This document shows positions 6,845 to 8,848 of a stretch of 64,000 nt of DNA, one piece after another. Origin of the DNA: the human T2T-CHM13v2.0 reference genome, Homo sapiens; NCBI GenBank assembly GCA_009914755.4, contig CP068257.2, positions 27,456,001-27,520,000 on the forward strand. The letters are read 5' to 3'. The stretch's first letter is position 1. Every line of letters begins with the position of its first letter. The notes under the pieces were generated by a model, which was not told the DNA's origin, ran no database searches, and saw nothing but the letters and a program-made list of their open reading frames with translations. The translations under genes were made by a program, and so were the position numbers.

Positions 6845-7241
6845 AAAATACTAGTTTTTGAAGGCATTTAAAGGAGTTGAAAGATTCAAAACAGCTCACA
6901 CACAAAAAGCCAGTATAATAACAACAAATTATAATAAAATAAAACATCTCAATATATATAAGTACAGCCATGGTTATCATGGTTGTTATTACGCCCTTCC
7001 CCTGCTTTGTTCCACATGTTCCATCTGCCTAGCCTCACTGTATTTAAGAGTCTGTGTACTGAGTTGTAGCAAAAGTATGTTGTATTCCTTTTATTATCTT
7101 TATTGCAGCTGGAAGGATCTCTGTGAAGATATTGCAACATAACAGTTGGTCAGAGCAGGTTAGAAACCTCTTCTTCCTTTCCTCTTAAGAAACAGATCTC
7201 TATCTTCCTGTGACAGACTAATTTAAAAAAAACAAAAAAGG

Positions 7242-7545
7242 GGCCGGGTGCAGTGGCTCACGCCTGTAATCCCAGCACTTTGGGAGGCCGAGGCGGGCGG
7301 ATCACGAGGTCAGGAGATCGACACCATCCTGGCTAACACGGTGAAACCCCGTCTCTACTAAAAATACAAAAAATTAGCCGGGCGTGGTGGCGGGCGCCTG
7401 TAGTCCCAGCTACTCGGGAGGCTGAGGCAGGAGAATGGCGTGAACCTGGGAGGCGGAGCTTGCAGTGAGCCGAGATCACGCCACCTCACTCTAGCCTGGG
7501 CGACAGAGCGAGACTCCGTCTTTAAAAAAAAAAAAAAAAAAAAAA
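7242..7545 (+). mobile_element. Alu SINE (AluY/Sc-like, many CpGs retained), sense
   Basis: GGCCGGGTGCAGTGGCTCACGCCTGTAATCCCAGCACTTTGGGAGGCCGAGGCGGGCGGATCACGAGGTCAGGAGATCGACACCATCCTGGCTAACACGG...GCGAGACTCCGTCTTT, followed by a 24-nt poly-A. It is near consensus except for a private GACACC variant. Confidence 0.93.
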
Positions 7546-7825
7546 GGAAATGGATCTCCTCCTCCCACCTTTGTCCTCTGAGCGGCAGCCCGAATGAATA
7601 GGAAGCTGTCAGCATCAGCCACGTATGCCCTGGAGAGTCACAAGCCTCACTGGTTTTCGGCATGGCTGCCTTTCTTCATCTCAATTGAGTAATCTTCAAA
7701 CCCTTGTTTCCCCACTCCACATTTCTTAGTATAAATATCATTTCAGTTCGCTTCTTGGGCTACGGATAAAGCAGAGGAGGGGTATGAAATTTTAGAAAAA
7801 TAGAGATGAATACTTTGTTTCAGTC

Positions 7826-8065
7826 CTTAATTTTACTGATGAGGAAACTGACTACTAAGAGGTTGCAGTAACTTTCCCAAAGTCATACAGCTAGTTAGAG
7901 TGTGGATTTCAGAGCCACACTGGATTTAACTTCCAGTGCTGTCATTTACTAGCTGTTTTGAATTTGGGAAAGTCATGTAAATATTCTGAGTCTCCGTTTT
8001 CTCTGTAAAATGAAGATGATAATAGTTAGATCACAGAGTTGTTGGTTATTGCAACTATTACGCAT
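7826..8065. mobile_element. MIR SINE sequences arranged as an inverted pair. The left arm is antisense and the right arm is sense
   Basis: Left arm: TTTTACTGATGAGGAAACTGA...AACTTTCCCAAAGTCATACAGCTAGTTAGAG. Right arm: TCATTTACTAGCTGTTTTGAATTTGGGAAAGTCATGTAA...TCTCTGTAAAATGAAGATGATAATAG. Both match the MIR core, in opposite orientation. Confidence 0.6.
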
Positions 8066-8140
8066 CACCTGGAAAAGTGTAGTAGTTATCTATTACGGTG
8101 TTACAGATAACCCCAACATTAGCAGCTTAAAACAGCAAAC

Positions 8141-8453
8141 TTTTTTTTTTTTTTTTTTTTTTTTTTTGAGATGGAGTCTCTCACTCTTGTCACCCAGGCT
8201 GGAGTGCAATGGCACGATCTCGGCTCACTGCAAGCTCCACCTCCTGGGTTCCCACCATTCTCCTGCCTCAGCCTCCCGAGTAGCTGGGACTACAGGTGCC
8301 CGCCACCACACCTGGCTAATTTTTTGTATTTTTAGTAGAGACAGGGTTTCACCGGGTTAGCCAGGATGGTGTCGATCTCCTGACCTCGTGATCCGCCCGC
8401 CTCGGCCTCCCAAAGTGCTGGGATTACAGGCATGAGCCACTGCGCCCGGTCCC
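8141..8453 (-). mobile_element. Alu SINE, antisense
   Basis: 27-nt T-tract, then GAGATGGAGTCTC...GGCTGGAGTGCAATGGCACGATCTCGGCTCACTGCAAGCTCC...GGGATTACAGGCATGAGCCACTGCGCCCGGTCCC. Its reverse complement carries the same private GATCGACACCATCCTGGCTAAC variant as the Alu at 7242. Confidence 0.92.
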
Positions 8454-8507
8454 TCTTTTTTTTTTTTTTTAATTAGTCTGTCACAGGAAGATGGAGGTCT
8501 GTGGATC

Positions 8508-8542
8508 TGGGATTACAGGCATGAGCTACCGCGCGTGGCCGC
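8508..8542 (-). mobile_element. Alu 5'-end fragment (~35 bp), antisense
   Basis: TGGGATTACAGGCATGAGCTACCGCGCGTGGCCGC. Confidence 0.7.
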
Positions 8543-8848
8543 AAACATTTTTTATCTTACGATTTCTGTGGGTCAGCAATCTGGGTGTGGCTTCGCTGGA
8601 TACCTCAGGCTCAGCATCTACTACAAAGCTGCATGATAGGTCATGCAAAATGCCATTTACATGGGTGTGAAAAGCAGGAAGTGGAATCATTGGAGACCAT
8701 TTTCCAGGCTGTCTAGCACAGAGTATCTGCTTCATAATGATTGATTTGGGATTAGATACTGGGTCAAGTAATAATGTCACCCACACAGATTATTGGATCA
8801 ATGTTCACCTGAAGGCTTTGTTCTCAGCCTGGTCTTGTTTAACATGTT

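What the first reader, a model, noticed from the sequence alone, without database searches (positions are those of the whole stretch)
7194..8545. Inverted duplication (~350 bp) of an Alu plus 33 bp of flank, with a 595-bp spacer
Left arm: CAGATCTCTATCTTCCTGTGACAGACTAATT, then an A-tract, then Alu(+) at 7242-7545. Right arm, read on the opposite strand: CAGACCTCCATCTTCCTGTGACAGACTAATT, then A16, then the Alu at 8141-8453. The non-Alu flank matches at 29 of 31 positions. Both Alus share a private GATCGACACCATCCTGGCTAAC variant where the consensus has GAGACC. So the two arms are copies of each other, not two independent insertions. The left Alu keeps most CpGs and the right copy has lost many. 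This suggests later gene conversion of one arm or unequal decay. A 35-bp Alu-head fragment abuts the outer edge of the right arm (8508-8542). The structure is a long imperfect palindrome able to extrude a cruciform. It has the footprint expected of a fold-back or template-switch rearrangement.
Basis: seen in the sequence. Interest (0 to 1): 0.5.

Follow-up and report, generated by a model that had tools for sequence, protein, structure and literature searches.

The report
Alu patch-copied into its inverted neighbour
Two separately inserted, oppositely oriented Alu repeats lie about 600 bp apart, and a roughly 250-bp patch (two-thirds of the left Alu plus 50 bp of its upstream DNA) was later copied into the right one; this is a tidy but ordinary scar of DNA repair, not a new kind of element.

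Summary
Arms 7192-7545(+) and 8502-8141(-) align at 326/354. They share a 32-bp single-copy flank, the A-tract junction and a rare Alu variant (G81C: 0 of 155 outside AluY copies, no other window Alu).

The arms are not whole copies of each other. An exact GTTTGC target-site duplication brackets the 34-bp "Alu-head fragment" (8507-8540) and the right poly-A end (8141-8167). So head and tail belong to one older, independent Alu, and the flank copy sits inside that Alu, where it cannot be native.

Similarity is mosaic:
- Alu positions 1-197 differ at 7 sites, the 2.5th percentile of random AluY pairs. R's next-closest window Alu has 16.
- Positions 198-282 differ at 15 sites, no better than unrelated copies. 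Scan-corrected P is 0.014.

Best reading: a break or stalled fork in the right Alu was repaired by copying the inverted left Alu from about position 197 to position 1, then 50 bp further into the left flank. The new strand was end-joined to the retained head through a 4-nt filler.

This is Alu-Alu partial gene conversion with non-canonical termination, a known mechanism. Orthologous loci could not be reached, so direction and timing are inferred. Interest is low to moderate.

The parts
7192..7223 (+). 32-bp unique flank of the left Alu (ACAGATCTCTATCTTCCTGTGACAGACTAATT). Inferred to be native here and to be the donor of the right-arm copy.
   Evidence: Contiguous with single-copy upstream DNA. 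No other copy in the window, in about 390 kb of primate contaminant loci, or in three collection scans. Not Alu-like.
7224..7241 (+). A-rich target site plus GG (TAAAAAAAACAAAAAAGG). Candidate 5' target-site duplication of the left Alu.
   Evidence: A-run plus GG recurs after the tail at 7531-7547 (printout). Low information content: only GG is informative.
7242..7523 (+). Left AluY body (donor). Rare G81C variant at 7322.
   Evidence: 96.4% identity to AluY. 8 differences from the majority consensus, 21/25 CpGs kept. G81C.
7524..7545 (+). Left Alu poly-A tail (A22).
   Evidence: (I16).
7546..8140 (.). 595-bp unique spacer. Its last 6 nt (8135-8140, GCAAAC) are the 3' target-site duplication of the right Alu.
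8141..8167 (-). Poly-A tail (T27 on the + strand) of the older right Alu (R0).
   Evidence: Followed directly by GTTTGC, which matches the sequence just outside the stump.
8168..8254 (-). Right Alu positions about 198-282. Retained 3' part of the original right Alu R0, not related to the left Alu.
   Evidence: 15 differences from the left Alu in 83-85 nt, more than the mean random AluY pair (12.5). 2/9 CpGs kept. 75th percentile of divergence. The switch point is best placed after position 197, with a support interval of 133-242.
8255..8451 (-). Right Alu positions 1-197. Copied from the left Alu. G81C at 8371.
   Evidence: 7 differences from the left Alu; the next-closest window Alu has 16. 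2.5th percentile of random pairs. 10/16 CpGs kept.
8452..8470 (-). Copy of the left A-tract/GG junction (A15 then GAGG on the - strand).
   Evidence: Aligns base for base with 7224-7241, with 2-3 substitutions and a 1-nt length change.
8471..8502 (-). Copy of the left flank, lying inside the right Alu insertion.
   Evidence: 30/32 identity to 7192-7223.
8503..8506 (-). 4-nt junction filler (ATCC on the - strand). Alternatively a 3-nt filler ATC followed by CAC, where AC would be a 2-nt microhomology.
   Evidence: Read directly from the sequence. Matches neither the left flank (…GAA) nor the Alu continuation (CACTTT).
8507..8540 (-). 34-bp stump: positions 1-34 of the original right Alu R0.
   Evidence: 4/34 differences from consensus (top 20% of divergence). 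Starts exactly at Alu position 1, next to the TSD.
8541..8553 (-). 5' target-site duplication of R0 (AAAAAATGTTTGC on the - strand).
   Evidence: GTTTGC matches exactly, anchored at both element ends. P about 0.008 with ±2 slack at each end; 12/13 when the A-run is included.

Best explanation
Two AluY elements inserted independently, in opposite orientation, about 0.6-1 kb apart. The left one landed in an A-rich site just downstream of the unique sequence ...CTTCCTGTGACAGACTAATT. The right one (R0) is older and has the target-site duplication AAAAAA(T)GTTTGC.

Later, roughly 10-20 Myr ago on a rough hominoid clock, the right Alu suffered a break or a stalled fork between about positions 35 and 197. 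The end carrying its 3' part paired with the inverted left Alu. DNA synthesis copied the left Alu from about position 197 back to position 1. It did not stop there: it ran a further 50 bp through the left Alu's GG/A-tract and 32 bp of its native flank.

No homology remained for normal completion, so the new strand was end-joined to the other broken end, the retained first 34 nt of R0, through a 4-nt filler or a 2-nt microhomology. This is partial Alu-Alu gene conversion with non-canonical (end-joining) termination. An equivalent description is an Alu-homology-guided replicative template switch.

The product looks like an inverted duplication of an Alu plus its flank. It has no evident function. 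Its consequence is that complementarity between the pair rose to about 96% over about 230 bp and was extended by 50 bp, so a transcript across the region would form a stem of about 355 bp.

Shown here: the shared flank, junction and variant; R0's own TSD and stump; the mosaic similarity.
Inferred: the direction (left to right), the repair pathway, and the timing.
For: 1. Copy relationship. 326/354 identity running through flank, A-tract, GG junction and Alu. The flank 22-mer and G81C are unique to the two arms. G81C is in 0/155 outside AluY copies.

2. A pre-existing right Alu. An exact GTTTGC lies immediately 5' of the stump's first base and immediately 3' of the poly-A tail (P about 0.008 with slack). 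A 5'-end-only Alu fragment cannot arise by retrotransposition, so it must be the remnant of a disrupted full Alu.

3. Direction. In the right arm the flank copy lies between R0's head and R0's tail, inside a TSD-bounded insertion, so it is foreign there. In the left arm it is contiguous with single-copy DNA and is not Alu-derived.

4. Mosaic similarity. Positions 1-197 have 7 differences, the 2.5th percentile of 2080 random AluY pairs, and R's next-nearest window Alu has 16. Positions 198-282 have 15 differences against a random mean of 12.5. 57/65 outside copies are closer to L than R is, and 48/65 are closer to R than L is. Rate-weighted max-chi-square P = 0.014, best cut after position 197.

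5. Age heterogeneity in the right arm fits. The copied part is at the 18th percentile of divergence with 10/16 CpGs kept. The retained 3' part is at the 75th percentile with 2/9 kept. The stump has 4/34 differences.

6. No other window Alu can account for either 3' segment.

7. Mechanistic precedent. Partial Alu-Alu conversion producing mosaic Alus, concentrated among neighbours within about 10 kb (PMC8230782). When copying passes the end of homology, mammalian cells terminate by microhomology or N-addition joining to the resected second end (PMC5104497).
Against: - No orthologous locus could be examined, so the ancestral states are inferred.
- The mosaic signal is moderate (P = 0.014). The within-arm heterogeneity tests are individually non-significant (R CpG Fisher P = 0.097).
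- Since the inferred event, the copied tract changed at 7-8 sites in R but only 1 in L, an unexplained asymmetry (P about 0.07).
- The left arm has a TSD-like direct repeat, AAG-AAACAGATCTC / AAGGAAATGGATCTC, that spans the flank boundary (score 8, P about 0.03-0.04). If real, it would mean the flank was inserted at the left locus too.
- The left Alu's own TSD is only an A-run plus GG.
- The A-tract copies differ more (about 12%) than the rest of the patch.
Confidence: 0.55

Rival explanations
1. Chimeric or 5'-extended retrocopy. A read-through transcript of the left locus (flank + A-tract + Alu + poly-A) was reverse-transcribed by the L1 machinery about 600 bp away. The enzyme then switched template onto the first 34 nt of another Alu RNA. 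The whole right arm would be one retrotransposition event.
For: A single TSD encloses the whole right arm, which ends in a long pure poly-A tail. The junction has a short filler. Chimeric L1-mediated insertions formed by template switching are documented (PMC4476161; bioRxiv 10.1101/2025.02.02.635956).
Against: It predicts uniform similarity along the whole Alu, but the 3' 85 nt are unrelated (P = 0.014). A retrocopy landing within about 1 kb of its source has a prior of order 1e-6, and no local preference is known. Alu Pol III transcripts start at Alu position 1, not upstream. Known chimeras carry full-length small RNAs at the 5' end, not a 34-nt piece.
Confidence: 0.12
2. Whole-arm inverted duplication by fold-back or replication template switch. 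One arm is a de novo DNA copy of the other, with no pre-existing Alu at the target. Later gene conversion or unequal decay explains the differences.
For: Inverted orientation, close spacing, and shared flank, junction and variant.
Against: The inner boundary of each arm falls exactly at the end of a poly-A tail. The right arm's tail and its outer stump share a TSD. The 3' third of the Alus is unrelated, and no neighbouring Alu accounts for a later overwrite.
Confidence: 0.08
3. Same repair mechanism in the opposite direction. The right composite (stump + flank + A15 + Alu) is original, and a patch was copied from it into a pre-existing left Alu, inserting the flank between that Alu and its 5' TSD.
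For: The TSD-like repeat AAG-AAACAGATCTC (7186-7200) / AAGGAAATGGATCTC (7543-7558) would then be the left Alu's true TSD (P about 0.03-0.04). The mosaic pattern fits equally well.
Against: It leaves unexplained how unique non-Alu sequence came to lie inside a TSD-bounded Alu at the right locus, so a second rare event is needed. The candidate TSD has 2 mismatches and 1 indel in 15 nt, next to an Alu only about 3% diverged. The right arm, not the left, shows the stronger age heterogeneity.
Confidence: 0.08
4. Two copies of an unrecognised short repeat ending in …GACTAATT(A)n, each independently hit by an AluY in its A-tail.
For: Alus often insert into A-rich tails. Inside the Alu body the two copies are, overall, no closer than random AluY pairs (10 non-CpG differences against 9-13).
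Against: The flank is single-copy in all DNA searched. That includes collections shown to contain primate DNA, although the bound is weak. It would require coincidence of the rare G81C (0/155), of the same GG junction at the same distance, and of the low 1-197 divergence.
Confidence: 0.03

Closest known systems
Partial (mosaic) Alu-Alu non-allelic gene conversion between neighbouring Alus (Doronina-type survey, PMC8230782; neighbour effect within about 10 kb)
   Same: A pre-existing Alu has part of its sequence replaced by that of a nearby Alu, giving a hybrid element with its original TSD, tail and 3' part. Donor and recipient are under 1.3 kb apart.
   Different: Here the tract does not stay within the homologous element. 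It overruns the donor's 5' end by 50 bp, imports unique flank, duplicates Alu positions 1-34 and leaves a stump. The pair is in inverted orientation.
[quoted passage not shown] 2016, PMC5104497; Richardson and Jasin 2000, recalled from memory)
   Same: One junction is homologous and lies inside the Alu. Copying continues past the end of homology. The other junction is a rejoining to the resected second end with N-addition or microhomology (4-nt filler, or 2-nt AC).
   Different: Those are induced breaks in reporter constructs that copy from a sister chromatid. This is a fixed germline event using a diverged, inverted ectopic repeat on the same chromosome, with a tract of only about 250 bp.
Alu/Alu-mediated template switching (FoSTeS/MMBIR-type rearrangements; from general knowledge)
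   Same: Alu homology guides a switch of the nascent strand to a nearby template, with return by microhomology. The product is indistinguishable from this one.
   Different: Described cases are mostly kb-to-Mb CNVs with chimeric Alus at the breakpoints. This one is a net gain of about 90 bp inside one Alu.
L1-mediated chimeric retrocopies (U6/L1 and similar; PMC4476161)
   Same: A composite of two sequences enclosed by one TSD and ending in poly-A.
   Different: The 3' part is itself mosaic, the 5' part is only 34 nt of an Alu, and the source lies 600 bp away.

Membership tests
AluY SINE insertion (applies to each arm's underlying element) | About 282-bp dimeric 7SL-derived body with AluY diagnostic bases | tested here: met
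   96.4% (left) and 92.2% (right) identity to AluY. The typed consensus was validated against the majority of 65 outside copies, with only positions 89 and 96 differing.
AluY SINE insertion (applies to each arm's underlying element) | 3' poly-A tail and flanking target-site duplication at an A-rich, L1-endonuclease-type site | tested here: met
   Right: T27 tail, and TSD AAAAAA(T)GTTTGC enclosing stump through tail. Left: A22 tail. Its TSD is only an A-run plus GG, so this is met weakly for the left arm.
Partial Alu-Alu gene conversion | Mosaic element: one segment closely related to a donor Alu, the remainder unrelated | tested here: met
   7 differences in positions 1-197 against 15 in 198-282. 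Max-chi-square P = 0.014. Nearest-neighbour contrast 7 against 16.
Partial Alu-Alu gene conversion | Recipient Alu present at the orthologous site before conversion | not testable with these tools
   No primate genomes are available. ORF-based look-ups found nothing. Inferred only from R0's own TSD, stump and tail.
Partial Alu-Alu gene conversion | Exchange confined to the homologous (Alu) sequence | tested here: not met
   50 bp of non-Alu donor flank and A-tract were co-copied. This is therefore a variant with non-canonical termination.
Non-canonical HR termination (HR initiation with end-joining completion) | Non-homologous junction with microhomology or untemplated nucleotides, joined to the resected second end | tested here: met
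   Junction CCCAG|ATCC|ACAGACC at 8502-8507: a 4-nt filler, or ATC plus a 2-nt AC microhomology. The retained second end is the 34-nt stump.
Non-canonical HR termination (HR initiation with end-joining completion) | Initiating double-strand break and dependence on HR and alt-EJ factors | not testable with these tools
   The event is historical, and the product does not distinguish DSB repair from a replicative template switch.
Fold-back / de novo inverted duplication | The copy is created at a site with no pre-existing homologous element, with arbitrary boundaries and no TSD | tested here: not met
   The right arm ends at a poly-A tail plus TSD that pairs with the stump. The 3' third is unrelated.
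L1-mediated chimeric retrocopy | The whole 3' component descends from one source transcript | tested here: not met
   Mosaic similarity.
L1-mediated chimeric retrocopy | Single TSD and 3' poly-A | tested here: met
   This feature is shared with the preferred model and so does not discriminate.
Interspersed repeat family containing the 32-bp flank | Multiple dispersed copies | tested here: not met
   Only two copies in the window. None in about 390 kb of primate contaminant loci or in exact-match scans of metagenome and genome collections that do contain AluY. The bound is weak (under a few thousand copies). The viral scan was uninformative because that collection holds no Alu.

The most novel reading that the evidence does not exclude
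The left locus is a source Alu whose transcripts start upstream in unique DNA. One such 5'-extended RNA was retrotransposed as a chimeric unit, with a template switch onto another Alu RNA, only 600 bp away. That would be an instance of Alu 5'-flank transduction with local reinsertion, and the divergent 3' end would be due to chance or a later undetected conversion.
Probability: 0.1. Interest if true: 0.5.

Novelty: new member of a known kind. Interest (0 to 1): 0.28.

Why it matters
The locus is a clean natural example, readable from one sequence alone, of ectopic gene conversion between inverted Alus overshooting the repeat boundary and being completed by end joining. Such events:
- create apparent "inverted duplications of Alu plus flank";
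- leave 5' Alu stumps that repeat annotation treats as unrelated fragments;
- distort divergence-based Alu ages, because the right Alu is young in its 5' two-thirds and old in its 3' third;
- raise the complementarity of an inverted pair, and with it the dsRNA or hairpin potential.

It changes nothing fundamental. The ingredients (Alu-Alu conversion, non-canonical HR termination, Alu-guided template switching) are all established.

Tried and rejected
1. Flank as a deleted-Alu tail. By eye it vaguely resembled the Alu 3' end, but the alignment score is not above shuffles (P = 0.13 and 0.96). Rejected.
2. Flank as an interspersed repeat. No further copies in the window with up to 3 mismatches, in contaminant primate loci, or in three collection scans. 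The viral scan is uninformative because that collection contains no AluY.
3. G81C as a subfamily marker. 0/155 outside AluY copies carry it. The single GACACC hit (L124) is a chance 22-mer in 70% GC bacterial DNA.
4. Retrieving orthologous primate loci through ORFs in adjacent unique DNA. Two exact look-ups and one homology search found nothing.
5. An older repeat spanning the 7192 boundary, as a proof that the flank is native. No hits.
6. Later overwrite of a 3' segment by another nearby Alu, including 8868-9147. No candidate donor; the closest are 8/84 and 7/83, which is background.
7. Identifying the host gene from open frames. There were 723 fragments. The longest are artefacts of a TA/TG tandem array and none looks like an exon. 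Abandoned as peripheral.
8. Rfam. No family hit at the locus.
9. Left-arm TSDs. Both candidates are too weak to decide the direction.
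Full report
**What is there.** The region was read directly and scanned for repeats. A local alignment of the left region against the reverse complement of the right region gives a single alignment, 7192-7545(+) against 8502-8141(-), with 326 matches, 28 mismatches and 4 gap columns. 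It runs without interruption through the following parts:
- a 32-bp non-Alu flank, ACAGA(T/C)CTC(T/C)ATCTTCCTGTGACAGACTAATT;
- an A-rich tract of 16-17 nt;
- an extra GG / GAGG;
- a full AluY;
- the poly-A tail.

The exact 22-mer from the flank, and the Alu variant GATCGACACC (G to C at Alu position 81), each occur only in these two places among 52 Alu pieces in the 64-kb window.

**Is the Alu variant private?** The metagenome and "bacterial genome" collections contain primate contamination: more than 120 and 31 AluY-bearing contigs respectively. Among 155 AluY copies recovered with a probe that accepts either base, none has G81C. The only GACACC hit is a chance 22-mer in 70% GC bacterial DNA. 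So G81C is a rare variant and not a subfamily marker. The same loci gave 65 full-length AluY copies, which I used as a baseline.

**Is the flank a repeat?** I found no evidence that it is.
- It has no other copy in the window with up to 3 mismatches.
- It has none in the roughly 390 kb of contaminant primate DNA.
- It has no exact match in the three collections. The viral scan is uninformative because that collection holds no AluY at all.
- It does not resemble Alu sequence above shuffled controls (P = 0.13 and 0.96).

The bound on copy number is weak, at fewer than a few thousand.

**The right arm contains an older, independent Alu.** In element orientation the right arm reads: AAAAAATGTTTGC | GGCCACGCGCGGTAGCTCATGCCTGTAATCCCAG | ATCC | flank copy | A15 | GAGG | full Alu | A27 | GTTTGC…. 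The hexamer GTTTGC lies immediately outside the first base of the 34-bp Alu head and immediately after the poly-A tail. With the A-run included, 12 of 13 positions match. A random anchored 6-mer match, allowing ±2 slack at both ends, occurs with P about 0.008 in this window.

A fragment consisting only of the 5' end of an Alu cannot be made by retrotransposition, which yields 3' pieces. So the head must be the remnant of a complete Alu (R0) whose tail is the present poly-A tail. It follows that the flank copy sits inside an Alu insertion, where it cannot be native sequence. At the left arm the same sequence is contiguous with single-copy DNA. This is the main argument for the direction left to right.

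**The two Alus are related only in part.**
- Over the whole body they are no closer than unrelated AluY copies: 10 non-CpG differences against 9-13.
- The differences are very unevenly placed. Positions 1-197 have 7 and positions 198-282 have 15.
- Against a per-site variability baseline, a maximum-chi-square scan places the switch after position 197, with scan-corrected P = 0.014. The 2-lnL support interval is 133-242.
- Among 2080 random AluY pairs, only 2.5% are as close over 1-197. Over 198-282, 31% are as distant or more.
- Over 198-282, 57 of 65 outside copies are closer to the left Alu than the right Alu is, and 48 of 65 are closer to the right Alu than the left Alu is.
- Within the window, R's nearest relative over 1-197 is L (7 differences; the next best has 16). 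Over 198-282 at least seven other Alus are closer to R.
- No window Alu is a candidate donor for either 3' segment.

The right arm is internally heterogeneous in the expected way:

| Part of the right arm | Divergence among outside copies | CpGs kept |
|---|---|---|
| Copied part, positions 1-197 | 18th percentile | 10/16 |
| Retained 3' part, positions 198-282 | 75th percentile | 2/9 |
| Stump, positions 1-34 | 4/34 differences (top 20%) | not counted |

**Mechanism.** The simplest history has two independent, inverted AluY insertions. Then came one repair or replication event in which the 3' part of the broken right Alu paired with the left Alu. Synthesis copied the left Alu from about position 197 to position 1 and continued 50 bp into its GG/A-tract and flank. 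The new strand was then joined to the retained 34-nt head through ATCC, read either as a 4-nt filler or as ATC plus a 2-nt AC microhomology.

Both halves have precedent.
- Partial Alu-Alu gene conversion produces mosaic Alus and is concentrated among neighbours within about 10 kb (PMC8230782).
- When gene conversion proceeds into sequence with no homology to the second end, mammalian cells finish by microhomology-mediated or N-addition joining to the resected second end (PMC5104497).

A replicative, Alu-guided template switch would give the same product, so the two cannot be told apart here.

The patch shows 4 non-CpG differences in roughly 200 non-CpG sites. On a hominoid-type clock that suggests an age of order 10-20 Myr, but this rests on four events and on assumed rates.

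**What does not fit neatly.**
- The left arm has a direct repeat, AAG-AAACAGATCTC / AAGGAAATGGATCTC, straddling the flank boundary and the post-tail DNA (score 8, P about 0.03-0.04). If it were a true TSD, the flank would be an insertion at the left locus as well, and the direction would reverse. It has 2 mismatches and an indel beside an Alu that is only about 3% diverged, and it lies in locally CT-rich sequence, so I treat it as chance. I carry the reverse-direction model as a rival.
- The left Alu's own TSD is only an A-run plus GG.
- Since the event, the copied tract changed at 7-8 sites in the right arm but only 1 in the left (P about 0.07). This is unexplained. Methylation differences or later homogenisation of the left Alu are possibilities.

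**Rivals.**
- A one-step chimeric retrocopy of a 5'-extended left-locus transcript would explain the single TSD and the poly-A end. It predicts uniform similarity along the Alu, and it requires a retrocopy to land 600 bp from its source.
- A de novo fold-back duplication does not explain arms that end exactly at poly-A tails, nor the TSD plus stump.
- Independent insertions into a repeat require several coincidences: G81C, an identical junction, and low divergence over 1-197.

**Structure-forming potential.** Folded as RNA, 7185-8510 forms an almost continuous stem of about 355 bp (MFE -823 kcal/mol), as any close inverted Alu pair would. For DNA, a 595-bp spacer lies well outside the range where inverted Alus were shown to be unstable (12-100 bp) or where hairpin effects are inferred (about 100 bp or less) (PMC3670932, citing Lobachev 2000). 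The cruciform suggestion is therefore not supported. The conversion did raise the pair's complementarity to about 96% over the patch, compared with about 89% for random AluY pairs.

**Limits.** No orthologous primate sequence was reachable. The species and the host gene are unknown. AluY content implies a catarrhine primate. Attempts to find exons were unproductive. Rfam reports nothing at the locus.

**Verdict.** This is a real feature of an ordinary kind: a repair scar between two neighbouring inverted Alus. The unusual, instructive detail is that the conversion tract overshot the Alu boundary and captured unique flank.

Noticed in passing
window 49902-50003 (-): Full-length match to Y RNA (RF00019): 66.9 bits against a gathering score of 38, model positions 1-96. 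Either a Y RNA gene or a retropseudogene.
   Followed up: no
window 57784-58930: A degenerate TA/TG-rich tandem array of about 1.1 kb, with nested periods of 6, 17, 45 and 128 and 64-71% matches. It produces the longest stop-free frames in the window, up to 313 codons.
   Followed up: partly
window, whole: Very Alu-dense: 52 Alu pieces in 64 kb, about a dozen of them AluY-type. A third AluY at 8868-9147(-) lies 400 bp beyond the right arm and is 88% complementary to the left Alu (I2). It shows no special relationship to either arm.
   Followed up: yes
window about 7830-8030 (inside the spacer): By eye, the spacer contains a MIR-like core (…CTGATGAGGAAACTGA…AAGTCATACAGCTAGTTAGAG…). That would fit the spacer being old, unique mammalian DNA. 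Not tested against a repeat library.
   Followed up: no
L138:5365-5639 (NZ_CP180204.1, Georgenia sp. SUBG003 'complete genome'): An Alu of about 275 bp (local score 214/282) sits inside 67-73% GC bacterial sequence in a record labelled as a complete chromosome. It is most likely a contamination or assembly artefact.
   Followed up: partly
L149 (CAVXBB010000006.1, 144,627-bp contig of an Acidobacteriaceae MAG); also L133, L144, L147, L148 (Roseivirga MAG), L140, L145: Near-perfect Alus (up to 273/282) in 32-47% GC DNA within contigs binned as bacterial. These contigs are probably primate DNA.
   Followed up: partly
window 7186-7200 and 7543-7558: Imperfect direct repeat AAG-AAACAGATCTC / AAGGAAATGGATCTC on either side of the left arm (P about 0.03-0.04). 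It could be chance in CT-rich DNA, or a true TSD that would reverse the inferred direction of copying.
   Followed up: partly
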